Virus record (IMG/VR): IMGVR_UViG_2681813320_000010
Location: 1 to 5,088 of that record
Reading direction: 5' to 3' (one strand)
Origin: a virus
Taxonomy: Duplodnaviria > Heunggongvirae > Uroviricota > Caudoviricetes
Length of the DNA stretch: 5,088 bases
Of the stretch, positions 800-4,399 are shown one piece after another (the first letter of the stretch is position 1; each line of letters opens with the position of its first letter). A program made the position numbers and the translations under genes. The notes under the pieces were generated by a model, which saw only the letters and a list, made by a program, of their open reading frames with translations, was not told where the DNA came from and did no database searches.

Positions 800-891
800 T
801 TTGTTTTACCTCATTACAGATTTAAGGGTGAACAAATCCCTGCCATTGCTGGCATATAAGAATGAAACCGGATATTTATTACGGAACTGTT

Positions 892-1083
892 TTAAAGACC
901 TGCCGGGATTTCGTTATTATCCTGGTGAATAACTTTATCGACCGGGTAACAGTTACCGGGAATTTTCTGTTCTGCTGCGGCAGCCATGCATTCTTTCATT
1001 GAGTTGTACATGCCGGTGATTGCATCAAGCGACTCACCAGTATTGAGATATACAGTCAGAATGAGTATGAATAATGTGTTCAT
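892..1083 (-). CDS. Small hypothetical protein (63 aa) with hydrophobic N-terminal segment, candidate small membrane protein
   Basis: ATG at 1083-1081 preceded by GGAGAG Shine-Dalgarno (5-nt spacing); the track ORF 892..1089 starts 2 codons earlier at GTG. Product MNTLFILILTVYLNTGES... has a hydrophobic stretch at the N-terminus. Its start overlaps the stop of the upstream gene in an ATGA junction. Stop TAA at 894-892. Confidence 0.45.
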   Translation of the reverse strand: MNTLFILILTVYLNTGESLDAITGMYNSMKECMAAAAEQKIPGNCYPVDKVIHQDNNEIPAGL

Positions 1084-1268
1084 CGCCACTCTCCGAAAAT
1101 ACCGAGTTTAAGAAGGGCAATTCTGGAGAGTATGGAATTGTCATTCAGCAGGTAGGGTTCATATTTTCTCATATTGATTGCATCCTCGGTGAAATCCCTG
1201 TTACTGAGCAGAACACCAATATTAAAGCACCCGTCAGACGTATTAACGTTTGGTAGTGACGTTTCCAT
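1080..1268 (-). CDS. Small hypothetical protein (62 aa), translationally coupled to the downstream small membrane protein gene
   Basis: ATG at 1268-1266 with GAGGA Shine-Dalgarno 7 nt upstream. The longer track ORF 1080..1373 starts at GTG with no ribosome-binding site and runs through the inverted repeat, so the shorter start is preferred. Stop TGA overlaps the next ATG (ATGA). Confidence 0.4.
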   Translation of the reverse strand: METSLPNVNTSDGCFNIGVLLSNRDFTEDAINMRKYEPYLLNDNSILSRIALLKLGIFGEWR

Positions 1269-1285
1269 TATCGCGTCCTCAACAA

Positions 1286-1433
1286 TGAATTTTGTGATGC
1301 GGTGCCTGGTGCCTCCAGGTGACGTTAACCAGTTAACAATTAACGCCGGATACAGAGAATCCACCCATAACACTGTTTTTGGTTTTAACTGTTCCGCGTG
1401 CGCTCAGCCGCATTCACCACATCACAAAATTCA
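1286..1433. repeat. 19-bp imperfect inverted repeat pair bracketing a 110-bp spacer
   Basis: 1286-1304 TGAATTTTGTGATGCGGTG; 1415-1433 CACCACATCACAAAATTCA, the reverse complement with 1 mismatch (18/19). The spacer 1305-1414 holds a GGTGCCT tandem direct repeat (1301-1314), a CCTGG/CCAGG palindrome and three closely spaced TTAAC motifs (1325-1344). The left arm ends 18 nt upstream of the ATG at 1268. Confidence 0.6.
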
Positions 1434-1827
1434 CTTTAAAAAGGGCGGCAGAGCAGTCACGGAGTAAAACTGATACCGCCAAAAGTCACCAGAAAATTGA
1501 TAACAGAGGGCGTTGCAGCGGAGTTGTCACTTAAGCGTATGGTCAACCTGACAACCCGGTGTCCTCAACGGGGGAAGGAATAACCCCGCCATACTTACCG
1601 CCGCGCCATTTCGCGGAGTGCCACAACCGGAAGCGCACGGTCGAACTAAATTTAACGACACCGTACAGAGAGACCAATTTCGCCGTGCGCTTTCGCGTTA
1701 TGCCCTGACTTTTCAGGGACATATCCTTTCAGTAAACTGTCAGTGCCGGATGTTCACCCGTGTCCGGCGCACGCACTCCACCTGACCCGTGGAGAACTCC
1801 TTAATTACCAACCCTCAGGAGGGTGAA
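1434..1827. other. ORF-poor, GC-richer structured intergenic region between the plus-strand 92-aa gene and the minus-strand small-gene operon
   Basis: No ORF of 60 codons or more in any frame across about 1468-1788. By hand count about 57% GC over 1541-1700, against AT-rich flanking small genes. Hairpins: CCGCG-ccattt-CGCGG (about 1600-1616), CCCTGA-cttt-TCAGGG (1703-1718), GCCGGA-12nt-TCCGGC (about 1744-1767). GTGCGC/GCGCAC recurs four times. Weak candidate plus-strand promoter: -35 TTTTCA at 1710-1715, -10 TAAACT at 1733-1738. Confidence 0.4.
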
Positions 1828-2106
1828 ATGGATAAAAAGCAAATTGAGGCCCTGCAATCTATTATTGAAAAACAAGATGAAGCTATCAGGATTCTTTCAT
1901 ATCGCACTGATATGATACTAAATATGCTTTCTGCATTAACGGCTGCGCTTGGTGGTACAAAAACAAACGTATACCGCGAAGTTGTTATTCAACAGATAGA
2001 TAAATTTGAAAAAACCATACCAGGTATTAATGCTCATCTTGCAGAACAAGAGAAAGACCATGCTCTTATGGCAATTTCTTCAGTAGCTCTCCCGAAAGTT
2101 GAGTAG
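1828..2106 (+). CDS. Hypothetical 92-aa coiled-coil-like protein, transcribed opposite to the surrounding early-left genes
   Basis: ATG at 1828 preceded by strong AGGAGGG Shine-Dalgarno (1817-1823); the track ORF begins upstream at GTG 1789 with no ribosome-binding site. Product MDKKQIEALQSIIEKQDEAIRILSYRTDMILNMLSALTAALGG... is balanced and heptad-like. Stop TAG at 2104-2106. The 3-prime 41 nt overlap the convergent 133-aa gene. Confidence 0.5.
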   Translation: MDKKQIEALQSIIEKQDEAIRILSYRTDMILNMLSALTAALGGTKTNVYREVVIQQIDKFEKTIPGINAHLAEQEKDHALMAISSVALPKVE

Positions 2107-2467
2107 TTTTAATTGTTGTTTTGAAATAATCACTGCTTTCACATTTGAGTGATTTCATGGCAATCCAAATGCGGGCCTCTGTGCCTGCATTTGGTTCCAG
2201 TTGCTGTAGACGTTTTGCGTCTTCCAAAAGTAAGGCGATAATGTGTTTCAGCTTCTCATCATTTGCTTGATTCTTGTTTTCAGGCGAATTCTGTCCGCCG
2301 AATAGGCGCTTCTCTTCATACAGACCTATAAAGGCACGACGCACGTTACCGGATATAGTATCGATGGTTTCCTTTTCTACAGTACTCAGGTCAAGAGTCG
2401 CCAGTTGAGAGCGAACCACATTCGCTGCCATTTCCTGGAATGGCATTGGTAAATCTTTAAATTCCAT
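2066..2467 (-). CDS. Hypothetical early-left protein (133 aa)
   Basis: ATG at 2467-2465 with GAGG Shine-Dalgarno 6 nt upstream, 22 nt after the stop of the upstream 72-aa gene (operon-like). Protein-like composition (MEFKDLPMPFQEMAANVVRSQLATLDLSTVEKETIDTISG...). No family recognised. The last 13 codons overlap the plus-strand gene, so the true 3-prime end is uncertain. Confidence 0.5.
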   Translation of the reverse strand: MEFKDLPMPFQEMAANVVRSQLATLDLSTVEKETIDTISGNVRRAFIGLYEEKRLFGGQNSPENKNQANDEKLKHIIALLLEDAKRLQQLEPNAGTEARIWIAMKSLKCESSDYFKTTIKTTQLSGELLKKLP

Positions 2468-3199: not shown

Positions 3200-3250
3200 T
3201 GAACAATACCACTACTATTTAATTATGTAAATAGCAGTGCTATTATCGTG
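3200..3250 (-). promoter_or_regulatory. Candidate OL/pL-like operator-promoter region for the early-left operon
   Basis: Overlapping palindromes: CTATTTA-ATTATG-TAAATAG (3215-3234) and AAATAG-CAGTG-CTATTA (3229-3245), plus a degenerate copy CAATAC-CACTA-CTATTT (3204-3220); same half-site family as the OR region. Candidate minus-strand promoter: -35 TTTACA (3229-3224), 17-nt spacer, -10 TATTGT (3206-3201). Lies between the terminator of the repressor operon and the first early-left gene. Confidence 0.4.
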
Positions 3251-3252
3251 GC

Positions 3253-3278
3253 AAGAAAAAAACCACCCGAAGGTGGTT
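3253..3278 (-). terminator. Rho-independent terminator of the repressor-antitoxin-toxin operon
   Basis: On the minus strand: 7-bp stem AACCACC/GGTGGTT with a UUCG tetraloop (plus 3261-3278), followed by a U-run (plus 3256-3260 AAAAA; transcript GGUGGUUUUUUUCUU). Begins 15 nt downstream of the toxin stop codon (3295-3293). Confidence 0.7.
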
Positions 3279-3292
3279 GTTGACAGGAAGGA

Positions 3293-3583
3293 TTAACAGG
3301 TTTTGTTTGGATACTGTCTTCGTGAGTGAACTACATTTACGATCTCGATGTTAGATGCTGTTACTCGGTAAAGTATTATGTAGTTAGGATGAGTCACTAT
3401 CTCACGAAGACTTGGAACTCTTTCGCTCGGTGGGTACAGATAAGGGTGTTCAGTAAGTGACAAAACTGATGTTTCAATGCGTATTTTTAGTCTACGTGCA
3501 GCGGGAGGGTTTTCCTTAGCAATATAGGCTACGATCTGACGTAAATCATCACGTGCAGAAGGTAGCCATAAAATGGGCAGCAT
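3293..3583 (-). CDS. parE: Type II toxin, ParE/RelE superfamily (ParE-like), 96 aa
   Basis: Product MLPILWLPSARDDLRQIVAYIAKENPPAARRLKIRIETSVLSLTEHPYLYPPSERVPSLREIVTHPNYIILYRVTASNIEIVNVVHSRRQYP shows the ParE pattern: W-x-x-x-A-x-x-DL-x-x-I-x-x-YIA, an R-x-L/I-E region, R-E/L-V/I then YRV then I-x-I-x-x-V-x-H, and a terminal RQ-x-P. ATG overlaps the upstream antitoxin stop by 1 nt (TAATG). Family assignment is from memory of ParE sequences; parE is a family-level symbol only. Confidence 0.8.
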   Translation of the reverse strand: MLPILWLPSARDDLRQIVAYIAKENPPAARRLKIRIETSVLSLTEHPYLYPPSERVPSLREIVTHPNYIILYRVTASNIEIVNVVHSRRQYPNKTC

Positions 3584-3774
3584 TACTCACTCCTGTTCGT
3601 TGCAGCTAATTGAGCAATAAGGTTTTCCATTTCAGCCATTACTTCGTCATGTGGAATTGCAGGACGGGGATCTGAGAGGCTTGCTGCCACTTTGGTTCGC
3701 AACCATTCGTTATAGCTGTTTTCTTGTTCGACTGTTTCAAATTCAGAAATTATCGGGGAAAGGGCTGTACTCAT
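3583..3774 (-). CDS. paaA: Small antitoxin (63 aa) paired with the ParE-like toxin; resembles PaaA-type antitoxins of three-component ParE systems
   Basis: ATG at 3774-3772 with GGAGG Shine-Dalgarno 7 nt upstream, 17 nt after the repressor stop; stop overlaps the toxin start. Product MSTALSPIISEFETVEQENSYNEWLRTKVAASLSDPRPAIPHDEVMAEMENLIAQLAATNRSE is small, acidic and likely disordered, typical of type II antitoxins. The PaaA-like call rests on gene order and recollection, not a search; paaA is a family-level symbol only. Confidence 0.7.
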   Translation of the reverse strand: MSTALSPIISEFETVEQENSYNEWLRTKVAASLSDPRPAIPHDEVMAEMENLIAQLAATNRSE

Positions 3775-3791: not shown

Positions 3792-4292
3792 TTAGGCGCG
3801 ACGACCCTTTTGCGCAGCTAGCCATCGCGCAACGATTTCTTCAATTGATTCTTTTTTCTCCTTCATTTCCTTAAGCATTTTCTCTTTATCTTCTTTGGGG
3901 AAAGCCCTGAACGTCTGGAGCAAATCCCGCTCCATGGGGTCTATATTAAACGGAAGTTCGTTTTCCGATTGTTCCATATCTGCAGATATAGTGACAACAT
4001 TGTCCTCCCCAGATTCTTGGGGATACATCCTTACAATTTGTAACAACTCGGCCATATCTGGTCTGATTGACTCGGGAGGAACTTGCAGCAACCCTGCGAA
4101 CTTGATAACAGCCTCAAGATTTAAAGGTGTCTGACCATTTAGATAATGGCTTACAGCTCCCTGTGTCGAAAATCCCAGAATTTCTGCCGCACGCTCTTGG
4201 GTTAACCCTAGTTGATTTTTTTTCGCCGTCCAGATTTCTTTCAGTCTCTGGGCGGCTTGCAGGTCGATCTCTGACAGGGATTTTCTTTTCAT
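3792..4292 (-). CDS. paaR: HTH (XRE/Cro-CI family) transcriptional repressor, 166 aa; CI analogue and first gene of the repressor-antitoxin-toxin operon
   Basis: N-terminal helix-turn-helix signature LTQERAAEILGFSTQGAVSHYLNGQTP. C-terminal region is Lys/Glu-rich with no recognisable LexA/S24-type autocleavage motif. Divergent from the Cro-like gene across an operator-rich 107-bp region. AAGG ribosome-binding site almost abuts the ATG, so the leader is poor. paaR is assigned by operon architecture, moderately confident. Confidence 0.8.
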   Translation of the reverse strand: MKRKSLSEIDLQAAQRLKEIWTAKKNQLGLTQERAAEILGFSTQGAVSHYLNGQTPLNLEAVIKFAGLLQVPPESIRPDMAELLQIVRMYPQESGEDNVVTISADMEQSENELPFNIDPMERDLLQTFRAFPKEDKEKMLKEMKEKKESIEEIVARWLAAQKGRRA

Positions 4293-4399
4293 ACCTTCAA
4301 TTCTAATAAGATTATTAATCTCTTTGAAATAGTGATGCTATTTACTTTTAAAAATAACAATGCTATTAATGATCGTGATGACATCACATGAGGTGAACA
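4293..4399. promoter_or_regulatory. Candidate OR-like divergent operator-promoter region between repressor and Cro-like gene
   Basis: Two 17-bp palindromic sites spaced 25 bp centre to centre: AAATAG-TGATG-CTATTT (4327-4343) and AAATAA-CAATG-CTATTA (4352-4368). A separate perfect palindrome GTGATG-a-CATCAC (4375-4387) sits just before the GAGGTG Shine-Dalgarno of the Cro-like gene. Candidate rightward promoter: -35 TTTACT (4341-4346), -10 TATTAA (4364-4369), overlapping the operators. Confidence 0.55.

What the first reader, a model, noticed from the sequence alone, without database searches (positions are those of the whole stretch)
892..1268. ATGA-coupled pair of about 62-aa genes, the second with a hydrophobic N-terminal segment
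Two very small genes overlap in an ATGA junction, each with its own Shine-Dalgarno. The downstream product begins with an uncharged hydrophobic stretch (MNTLFILILTVYL) consistent with a single membrane helix. Small membrane-active proteins in lambdoid early-left regions are typically host-killing or cell-division inhibitors (Kil-type) or exclusion factors. The pair could be a toxic peptide and its modulator. It sits directly downstream of the 19-bp inverted repeat structure.
Basis: inference. Interest (0 to 1): 0.4.

Follow-up and report, generated by a model that had tools for sequence, protein, structure and literature searches.

The report
Known prophage dicB–ydfD gene pair
The two small overlapping genes are dicB (a cell-division inhibitor) and ydfD (a cell-lysis protein), a well-studied pair carried by lambda-like prophages in most E. 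coli genomes, so the finding is real but ordinary.

Summary
On the minus strand, a 62-aa ORF (1268..1080) and a 63-aa ORF (1083..892) overlap in ATGA. Each has a Shine-Dalgarno 7 nt upstream, and the second begins with the hydrophobic run MNTLFILILTVYL. They are not unknown genes. The first is DicB (Pfam PF05358, 111.7 bits; NCBIfam 103.4 bits against a cut-off of 100). The second is DUF1482/YdfD (PF07358, 69.3 bits; 42/63 identical to K-12 YdfD). A DicF sRNA gene lies 175 nt upstream on the same strand, and the layout matches the Qin prophage dicBF operon. The pair occurs in 4296 of 5426 complete E. coli genomes and in sequenced lambdoid phages. The ATGA overlap with dicB was kept in all 15 other dicB-ydfD loci examined. 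Published K-12 work shows DicB blocks division through MinC/ZipA and excludes ManYZ-dependent phages. It also shows YdfD lyses dividing cells, reportedly by inhibiting IspG, and that DicB co-expression prevents this lysis. This window carries a minority allele (about 231 genomes): a diverged block spanning most of DicB and the YdfD N-terminus, between near-identical flanks. Already known; low interest.

The parts
1080..1268 (-). dicB: 62-aa cell-division inhibitor DicB (minority allele)
   Evidence: Translation. Pfam PF05358 scores 111.7 bits, E 1.3e-32. NCBIfam NF049927 scores 103.4 bits against a cut-off of 100. The same protein is annotated as dicB, WP_000450218.1, in L001. It is 36/62 identical to K-12 DicB.
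892..1083 (-). ydfD homologue: 63-aa DUF1482 protein (lysis protein YdfD family)
   Evidence: Translation. Pfam PF07358 scores 69.3 bits, E 2.5e-19. PHROG 1092 matches at E 5.9e-36. The same protein is annotated WP_001093903.1 in L001. It is 42/63 identical to K-12 YdfD, and 31/35 identical over residues 29-63.
1080..1083 (-). ATGA stop/start overlap (dicB TGA, ydfD ATG)
   Evidence: Read from the sequence. The same 4-nt overlap with dicB is found in L001-L007, in phages L008 and L009, and in L010-L014 and L016.
1276..1280 (-). Shine-Dalgarno GAGGA of dicB, 7 nt before the ATG
   Evidence: Read from the sequence. It is identical in 7 of the 8 sequences compared; L006 has GAGGG.
1089..1094 (-). 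Shine-Dalgarno GGAGAG of ydfD, inside the dicB coding sequence, 7 nt (from GGAG) before the ATG
   Evidence: Read from the sequence. K-12-type alleles have AAGGA at the equivalent place.
1443..1494 (-). DicF sRNA gene, same strand, upstream of dicB
   Evidence: Rfam RF00039 scores 75.8 bits against a gathering score of 48, E 5.1e-16, full length 1-52.
1286..1433 (-). DicF-dicB leader, closed by the 19-nt inverted repeat (arms 1415-1433 and 1286-1304)
   Evidence: Repeat found. The RNA fold of 1500..1255 uses the repeat as a long stem of about 21 bp, with MFE -87.8 kcal/mol and z -4.37. The region is 97-100% identical to most other alleles compared.
841..854 (-). weak terminator-like hairpin 38-51 nt after the ydfD stop codon
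   Evidence: Consensus scan: 5 pairs and a T-poor tail, so weak. PMC10448788 reports a K-12 transcript, ydfABC-dicFB-ydfD, that does not extend into ydfE. Equating the two is my inference.
3203..3243 (-). dicBp-like promoter (TTTACA-17-TATTGT) overlapped by operator-type repeats ATAGNNNTGCTAT
   Evidence: Promoter scan. The operator motif gives 6 matches against 0.25 expected by chance, and is shared with the immunity region at 4329-4366. Its function is inferred from the Qin dicA/dicBp arrangement (PMC10448788).
2490..3023 (-). ydfA (DUF1391), ydfB and ydfC homologues: the upstream genes of the dicBF-type operon
   Evidence: Annotation of the collinear locus L001, mapped to window coordinates by offset.
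3792..4292 (-). 166-aa helix-turn-helix protein on the operon strand, in the position DicA occupies in Qin (its repressor role is inferred)
   Evidence: ORF, annotated as a helix-turn-helix domain-containing protein in L001. No family search was run on this protein.

Best explanation
The two ORFs are dicB and ydfD, the distal protein-coding genes of a dicBF-type early-left operon in a Qin-like lambdoid prophage of E. coli.

Shown here: family membership of both proteins, synteny with DicF and the rest of the operon, purifying selection on both frames, and conservation of the ATGA junction.

Taken from K-12 experiments in the literature: the operon is repressed by the prophage repressor and is transcribed from a promoter upstream of ydfA. 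The transcript is processed to release DicF, and read-through transcripts carry dicB-ydfD. DicB binds MinC and, through ZipA, brings it to the septum, where the FtsZ ring is dismantled and division stops. The same DicB-MinC interaction blocks ManYZ, which excludes phages that inject DNA through it. YdfD lyses growing cells, reportedly by binding IspG and starving envelope synthesis of isoprenoid precursors. The lysis needs ongoing division, so co-produced DicB suppresses it.

Inferred: the ATGA overlap, with the ydfD ribosome-binding site inside the end of dicB, couples YdfD synthesis to DicB translation. The lysis protein would then normally be made together with the protein that masks it. 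It is also inferred that this diverged allele keeps the K-12 activities.
For: Family matches: DicB PF05358 at 111.7 bits and DUF1482 PF07358 at 69.3 bits; NCBIfam DicB at 103.4 bits against a cut-off of 100; PHROG 1251 and PHROG 1092.

Context: DicF at 1494..1443 on the same strand. The gene order ydfA-ydfB-ydfC-(133-aa ORF)-DicF-dicB-ydfD-exonuclease matches the K-12-type locus apart from the extra ORF. Operator repeats are shared between the immunity region and a promoter-like site upstream of ydfA.

Distribution: the pair is annotated dicB plus ydfD/'lysis protein YdfD' in 4296 of 5426 complete E. coli genomes. It is also present in lambdoid phages such as mEp460 and the PPompW phages, and in E. 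albertii and E. ruysiae.

Selection and junction: the ATGA overlap with dicB is conserved in all 15 other dicB-ydfD loci. dN/dS was 0.08-0.35 in the 11 of 12 pairwise comparisons that could be estimated.

Functional determinants retained: DicB shares 11 of its first 14 residues with K-12 DicB, including L5, and PMC4967827 shows that the N-terminal ~14 residues and L5 are critical while the last 8 residues are dispensable. YdfD keeps N2, L63, C32 and C45 and 31/35 of the C-terminal domain, and PMC8835842 shows that removing even single terminal residues weakens lysis.

Literature for mechanism: PMC6832061 (DicB-MinC-ZipA and ManYZ exclusion); PMC8835842 (YdfD lysis, IspG, rescue by DicB or SulA, 'same operon, with partial overlap'); PMC10448788 (DicA repression, Rem antirepressor, RNase III/E processing, ydfABC-dicFB-ydfD transcript).
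Against: This allele is diverged from the one that was studied. DicB is only 36/62 identical to K-12 DicB and 10/27 over the C-terminal half. YdfD is 11/28 identical over residues 1-28, the segment reported to bind IspG (PMC8835842). The NCBIfam DicB score barely clears its cut-off.

No experiment exists for this allele. Translational coupling is inferred from geometry only: a local hairpin over the ydfD Shine-Dalgarno is no better than in shuffled sequences (z -0.87).

The IspG mechanism rests on one paper, without enzyme kinetics, as PMC8835842 itself says. It sits uneasily with the conserved hydrophobic N-terminus.
Confidence: 0.9

Rival explanations
1. YdfD acts at or across the inner membrane. 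It would be a membrane-anchored or exported small toxin (a holin-like or signal-anchored peptide, possibly with a C32-C45 disulfide in the periplasm), not a cytoplasmic IspG inhibitor.
For: The uncharged hydrophobic N-terminus is conserved in character in every allele even though its sequence varies. K-12 YdfD reaches a 19-residue Kyte-Doolittle mean of 2.00. Both cysteines are invariant. From my own recollection, the original YdfD study (Masuda et al. 2016) discussed membrane association; the paper could not be read here.
Against: The hydrophobic run is only 13-16 residues and is ended by an invariant G16-E17. In this allele the 19-residue mean is 1.42. There is no positively charged residue near the N-terminus. 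The AlphaFold model gives a 13-residue helix (3-15), but confidence is low at pLDDT 65. PMC8835842 reports pull-down, SEC, ITC and FRET evidence for IspG binding, rescue by ispG overexpression or HMBPP, and that cysteine mutants still bind IspG.
Confidence: 0.2
2. The pair is a dedicated toxin-antitoxin-like module, in which DicB (or its mRNA) specifically neutralises YdfD by direct interaction.
For: DicB co-expression blocks YdfD lysis (PMC8835842, PMC11430063). The genes are always adjacent within Escherichia, with a 4-nt overlap. The most diverged block covers most of DicB together with the YdfD N-terminus.
Against: According to PMC8835842, the unrelated inhibitor SulA also blocks the lysis, so division arrest is sufficient. 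DicB is itself toxic and acts through MinC (PMC6832061). Allele types are not strictly linked: window-type DicB pairs with two very different YdfD types (window versus L005, L008 and L016), and a window-like YdfD N-terminus pairs with a third DicB type in L003. In Citrobacter braakii a DUF1482 gene follows a different, Kil-like ORF rather than DicB.
Confidence: 0.07
3. The two ORFs are decaying relics of a cryptic prophage and have no function in this strain.
For: Qin-type elements are often defective, and in Shigella flexneri L017 only the last 26 codons of ydfD matched. The operon is repressed under ordinary conditions (PMC10448788).
Against: Both frames are intact, with start codons and ribosome-binding sites. 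dN/dS is 0.08-0.35 despite near-saturated or saturated dS in several comparisons, especially for dicB. The pair is present in sequenced phage genomes. The flanking operon, immunity genes and a full-length exonuclease gene appear intact in the near-identical locus L001.
Confidence: 0.05

Closest known systems
DicB of the E. coli K-12 Qin prophage (Pfam PF05358; 62 aa)
   Same: Same length, same position directly after DicF and before ydfD, and the same ribosome-binding region. The N-terminal half is 26/35 identical, including L5 and 11 of the first 14 residues. The match is above both curated thresholds.
   Different: Overall identity is 58%, and the C-terminal 27 residues share only 10 identities. 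This allele type is found in 438 of 5426 genomes, 231 of them at >=95%. Its activity has not been tested.
YdfD, lysis protein of the Qin prophage (DUF1482, PF07358; 63 aa)
   Same: Same length, the same 4-nt overlap with dicB, a nearly identical C-terminal domain (31/35), both cysteines, N2 and L63, and a hydrophobic N-terminus.
   Different: The N-terminal 28 residues are only 11/28 identical and less hydrophobic (19-residue mean 1.42 against 2.00). That is the segment reported to bind IspG (PMC8835842).
Lambda Kil and Rac KilR (prophage division inhibitors in the early-left operon)
   Same: Same kind of job and the same genomic neighbourhood: a small, toxic, repressor-controlled inhibitor of FtsZ-ring formation expressed from the early-left transcript (established knowledge; PMC6832061 covers DicB). 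A Kil-like ORF occupies the DicB position next to a DUF1482 gene in Citrobacter braakii.
   Different: No sequence relationship: there was no Lambda_Kil match for either window protein. DicB works through MinC/ZipA rather than acting on FtsZ/ZipA in the way Kil does (established knowledge).
Single-gene lysis proteins of small phages (phiX174 E, Qbeta A2, M LysM)
   Same: PMC8835842 places YdfD in this group: a small protein that causes lysis of growing cells by blocking a step of envelope-precursor synthesis rather than by degrading the wall.
   Different: The reported target (IspG) is different, YdfD sits in a temperate-phage early operon rather than serving as the phage's own lysis gene, and it is masked by a co-expressed division inhibitor.

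Membership tests
DicB (PF05358 / NF049927) | Sequence match above the curated thresholds | tested here: met
   Pfam scores 111.7 bits against a cut-off of 27. NCBIfam scores 103.4 bits against 100, a narrow pass.
DicB (PF05358 / NF049927) | A protein of about 62 aa encoded just downstream of DicF and just upstream of ydfD in a repressor-controlled early-left operon | tested here: met
   62 aa. DicF lies at 1494..1443 on the same strand. The locus is collinear with the K-12-type locus.
DicB (PF05358 / NF049927) | Intact N-terminal ~14 residues and L5, which are needed for activity (PMC4967827) | tested here: met
   METSLPNVNTSDGC against MKTLLPNVNTSEGC: 11/14 identical and L5 present. Position 2 tolerates substitution according to PMC4967827.
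DicB (PF05358 / NF049927) | MinC-dependent, ZipA-dependent inhibition of division, and ManYZ-dependent phage exclusion | not testable with these tools
   This needs expression in wild-type and minC mutant hosts (PMC6832061).
YdfD / DUF1482 (PF07358) | Sequence match above the curated threshold | tested here: met
   69.3 bits against a cut-off of 25, covering 57/57 of the profile. PHROG 1092 matches at E 5.9e-36. No NCBIfam model matched.
YdfD / DUF1482 (PF07358) | 63 aa, overlapping the dicB stop codon by 4 nt | tested here: met
   The same geometry is seen in all 15 other dicB-ydfD loci.
YdfD / DUF1482 (PF07358) | Residues whose loss weakens lysis (the terminal residues N2 and L63) and the conserved cysteines | tested here: met
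   N2, L63, C32 and C45 are all present. Their importance comes from PMC8835842.
YdfD / DUF1482 (PF07358) | Division-dependent lysis on expression, and IspG binding | not testable with these tools
   This needs induction assays and pull-downs with this allele.
Lambda Kil (PF06301) | Sequence match to the Kil profile | tested here: not met
   No Kil match for either protein at E<=0.01.
Single-pass membrane toxin or holin-like protein | A hydrophobic segment long enough to span the bilayer (about 19-20 residues) | tested here: inconclusive
   The uncharged run covers residues 1-16 and is ended by an invariant G16-E17. The 19-residue Kyte-Doolittle mean is 1.42 here and 2.00 in K-12 YdfD. The model helix 3-15 comes from a low-confidence prediction.
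Known anti-phage defence systems (PADLOC) | Match to a defence-system protein model | tested here: not met
   No PADLOC match for either protein.

The most novel reading that the evidence does not exclude
The diverged block is bounded by near-identical flanks. It covers DicB residues 4-62 and YdfD residues 1-32, at 37-87% nucleotide identity to the K-12 type, while the flanks are 97-100% identical. This block could be an exchangeable specificity cassette. In that reading, alleles such as this one would differ in what they target or exclude, for example a different phage-exclusion spectrum, or a YdfD N-terminal domain that binds something other than IspG. They would not be neutral variants of the K-12 proteins.
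Probability: 0.08. Interest if true: 0.4.

Novelty: already known. Interest (0 to 1): 0.1.

Why it matters
The finding mainly matters as a correct annotation. The window is the dicBF-type early-left operon of a Qin-like prophage, and the 'toxic peptide' idea is already covered by published work on DicB and YdfD. The only open point of modest interest concerns this minority allele. It differs from the studied K-12 proteins in exactly the parts said to matter for partner binding: the DicB C-terminal half and the YdfD N-terminal domain. Whether it keeps the same targets has not been tested.

Tried and rejected
- An inverted-repeat search limited to arms no more than 60 nt apart found nothing. The repeat is long-range, with arms 110 nt apart.
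- I tested whether a hairpin masks the ydfD Shine-Dalgarno, as a mechanistic basis for translational coupling. The local fold is not distinguishable from shuffled sequences (z -0.87), so I make no structural claim.
- The AlphaFold model of YdfD from a 26-sequence alignment reached only pLDDT 65 and pTM 0.32. I therefore ran no fold search and draw no structural conclusion beyond the helix lengths.
- Profile searches of the PDB found no solved relative of either protein.
- PADLOC returned no match, and NCBIfam has no model matching YdfD.
- The original YdfD paper (Masuda et al. 2016, PMC5975272) is not held. Its results are cited only as relayed by PMC8835842, PMC10448788 and PMC11430063.
- Kil-family membership was rejected.
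- The dedicated toxin-antitoxin reading was rejected, because SulA also rescues lysis (PMC8835842) and allele types are not strictly linked.
- The alternative ydfD start at GTG 1089 (65 aa) was rejected. It would leave only about 1 nt between the Shine-Dalgarno and the start codon, and RefSeq annotates the ATG.

Full report
**1. Observation**

The feature lies on the minus strand. A 62-codon ORF starts at ATG 1268 and ends at TGA 1082..1080. A 63-codon ORF starts at ATG 1083..1081 and ends at TAA 894..892. The two share the tetranucleotide ATGA at 1083..1080.

GAGGA (1280..1276) lies 7 nt before the first ATG. GGAG(AG) (1094..1089), inside the end of the first ORF, lies 7 nt before the second ATG.

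The second product begins MNTLFILILTVYL, with a Kyte-Doolittle mean of 2.07 over 13 residues.

**2. Identity**

- The first protein matches Pfam DicB (PF05358, 111.7 bits, E 1.3e-32). It also matches the NCBIfam DicB model, though narrowly (103.4 bits against a cut-off of 100).
- The second protein matches DUF1482 (PF07358, 69.3 bits), the family of YdfD.
- Rfam finds a full-length DicF sRNA at 1494..1443 on the same strand (75.8 bits against a gathering score of 48).

The whole window is 99% identical to an E. coli chromosome. There the genes are annotated, in operon order, as DUF1391/ydfA, ydfB, ydfC, a hypothetical gene, dicB, DUF1482 and a 3'-5' exonuclease. A helix-turn-helix protein and a relB/relE pair lie upstream, and a second helix-turn-helix gene plus ydaT lie on the other strand.

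Both window proteins are identical to the RefSeq proteins WP_000450218.1 (DicB) and WP_001093903.1 (DUF1482 family) of that locus. The K-12-type locus shows the same order: dicA, ydfA, ydfB, ydfC, dicB, ydfD ('lysis protein YdfD'), exonuclease remnant. The feature is therefore the dicB-ydfD end of a dicBF-type operon in a Qin-like lambdoid prophage.

**3. Distribution and conservation**

A 441-nt query covering the pair matches 4296 of 5426 complete E. coli genomes. The matches are nearly always annotated dicB plus ydfD/DUF1482.

The pair is also present in sequenced lambdoid phages: mEp460, the PPompW phages next to Stx2a phages, and others. It also occurs in E. albertii and E. ruysiae.

In all 15 other loci I examined that carry both genes, dicB ends and ydfD starts in the same ATGA.

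Against diverged alleles, substitutions in dicB are concentrated at third codon positions. In ydfD, first and third positions change about equally and second positions least. Nei-Gojobori dN/dS was 0.08-0.25 for dicB, with one comparison (L003) not estimable because dS was saturated, and 0.22-0.35 for ydfD. Both frames are therefore under purifying selection.

One Shigella flexneri locus matched only the last 26 codons of ydfD.

**4. How it works**

The mechanism is taken from experiments on the K-12 alleles.

- **Regulation.** DicA represses the operon promoter dicBp, and the Rem antirepressor relieves this. RNase III and RNase E process the polycistronic RNA to give DicF. A ydfABC-dicFB-ydfD transcript was detected (PMC10448788).
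- **DicB.** It binds MinC, and through ZipA it brings MinC to mid-cell, where the FtsZ ring is depolymerised. The same DicB-MinC interaction inhibits ManYZ, giving about 100-fold resistance to lambda and other ManYZ-dependent phages (PMC6832061).
- **YdfD.** It lyses cells rapidly. The lysis is blocked by co-expressing DicB or SulA, so it depends on ongoing division. YdfD binds IspG through residues 1-28, and ispG overexpression or HMBPP rescues the cells (PMC8835842; DicB rescue is also stated in PMC11430063).

In the window I find the matching regulatory anatomy. The operator-type repeat ATAGNNNTGCTAT occurs at 4329-4366, in the immunity region, and again at 3206-3243 (6 matches against 0.25 expected). 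The second site overlaps a minus-strand promoter-like element, TTTACA-17-TATTGT, that points at ydfA.

Two steps are inferred rather than shown. The first is that the ATGA overlap, with the ydfD ribosome-binding site inside dicB, ties YdfD synthesis to DicB translation, so the lysis protein is made together with the protein that masks it. A local hairpin over the ydfD Shine-Dalgarno is not significant (z -0.87), so this rests on geometry and conservation alone. The second is that this allele keeps the K-12 activities.

**5. What is particular to this window**

The pair here is a minority allele.

- DicB is 36/62 identical to K-12 DicB: 26/35 in the N-terminal part and 10/27 in the C-terminal part.
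- YdfD is 42/63 identical to K-12 YdfD: 11/28 over residues 1-28 and 31/35 over residues 29-63.

At the nucleotide level, the window and the K-12 type are 97-100% identical from 260 nt upstream of the dicB ATG to its third codon. They are 97-100% identical again from ydfD codon ~42 onward. Between these points, over dicB codon ~4 to ydfD codon ~32, identity is only 37-87%. This is a typical lambdoid mosaic block.

The window-type dicB block is found at >=95% identity in 231 genomes and at 80-90% in 207 more. The window-type ydfD N-terminal block is found in 231 genomes.

Allele types are not strictly linked. Window-type DicB also occurs with a very different YdfD (L005, L008, L016), and a window-like YdfD N-terminus occurs with a third DicB type (L003).

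The determinants shown to matter are retained. For DicB these are the first ~14 residues and L5, while the last 8 residues are dispensable (PMC4967827). For YdfD they are the terminal residues, and the conserved cysteines are also kept (PMC8835842).

**6. The membrane-helix claim**

In every allele the uncharged N-terminal run ends at an invariant G16-E17. In this allele the best 19-residue hydrophobicity window is 1.42, below the usual 1.6 guide value, against 2.00 in K-12 YdfD.

An AlphaFold model from 26 sequences has low confidence (pLDDT 65). It shows a 13-residue helix (3-15), a break, a second helix (19-38) and a C-terminal hairpin. Neither protein has a solved relative.

A membrane-associated or exported form cannot be excluded. 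The hydrophobic character and both cysteines are conserved. However, it is not established, and the published target is IspG, an enzyme of the MEP isoprenoid pathway. I keep this as the main rival for the YdfD mechanism.

**7. Comparison with known families, and verdict**

Both proteins pass the sequence, length, synteny and key-residue tests for DicB and YdfD/DUF1482. Their activities cannot be tested here.

They are not Kil-family proteins and match no PADLOC defence model. They are also not a dedicated toxin-antitoxin pair: SulA also rescues lysis, DicB is toxic in its own right, and allele types are not strictly linked.

The family, the assignment of roles to the two genes, and the membrane helix were not established.

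The feature is already known and already annotated with these exact protein sequences. Interest is low.

Noticed in passing
window 1255-1500 (minus strand): The leader between DicF and dicB folds with the 19-nt inverted repeat as a long-range stem of about 21 bp that closes a multibranch structure (MFE -87.8 kcal/mol, z -4.37). The stem ends 5 nt upstream of the dicB Shine-Dalgarno. The stretch from -79 to +10 of the dicB ATG is 97-100% identical in all six loci compared. From -260 to -80 this holds for four of the six, while L003 and L005 diverge. The stem could be a processing or translation-control element for dicB-ydfD expression.
   Followed up: partly
L001 4279-5247 (E. coli fS10a), corresponding to an insertion at about window 1290: The closest genome carries an 863-bp insertion between DicF and dicB that the window lacks. 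It holds a Rha-family regulator gene and an 84-nt partial duplicate of the dicB 5' end, and the upstream sequence diverges about 22 nt before the dicB ATG. This suggests the dicB 5' end is a recombination joint.
   Followed up: no
window 890-1260 compared with L002-L009: There is a mosaic block. DicB codons ~4-62 and YdfD codons 1-32 are 37-87% identical to the K-12 type, while both flanks are 97-100% identical. Synonymous divergence is high in this block (dS about 1.7 for dicB, 0.64 for ydfD).
   Followed up: partly
window 3293-3774 (minus strand): A relB/relE-type toxin-antitoxin pair (96-aa RelE/ParE toxin, 63-aa RelB antitoxin, ATGA-type overlap at 3583) sits between the helix-turn-helix gene at 3792-4292 and the dicBp-like promoter. 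It is followed by a good terminator at 3278..3261. The K-12 Qin locus has no such insert.
   Followed up: no
window 3206-3243 and 4329-4366: Operator-type repeats ATAGNNNTGCTAT occur in two clusters (6 matches against 0.25 expected by chance). One cluster lies in the divergent immunity promoter region. The other overlaps a promoter-like site that points at ydfA.
   Followed up: partly
window 1828-2106 (+) and 2066-2467 (-): Two unnamed ORFs lie between ydfC and DicF: 92 aa from the ATG on the + strand and 133 aa on the - strand. They converge and overlap by 41 nt. Both are annotated as hypothetical in L001 and are absent from the K-12 locus.
   Followed up: no
L015 1176-1692 (Citrobacter braakii): A DUF1482 gene (79.6 bits) is preceded here not by DicB but by an ORF with a sub-threshold Lambda_Kil match (22.2 bits against 27.6), and an STnc100 sRNA match stands where DicF would be. 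This hints that the lysis gene travels with whichever division inhibitor the phage carries.
   Followed up: partly
L012 and L016 (Escherichia albertii): Both loci have an intact dicB-ydfD pair with the ATGA junction, but no DicF match at gathering score within the 1.5 kb upstream.
   Followed up: no
window 841-854 (minus strand): A weak hairpin (TGCCAGCAATGGCA, 5 pairs, T-poor tail) lies 38-51 nt after the ydfD stop codon, before the exonuclease gene. It may correspond to the end of the ydfABC-dicFB-ydfD transcript reported for K-12 (PMC10448788).
   Followed up: no
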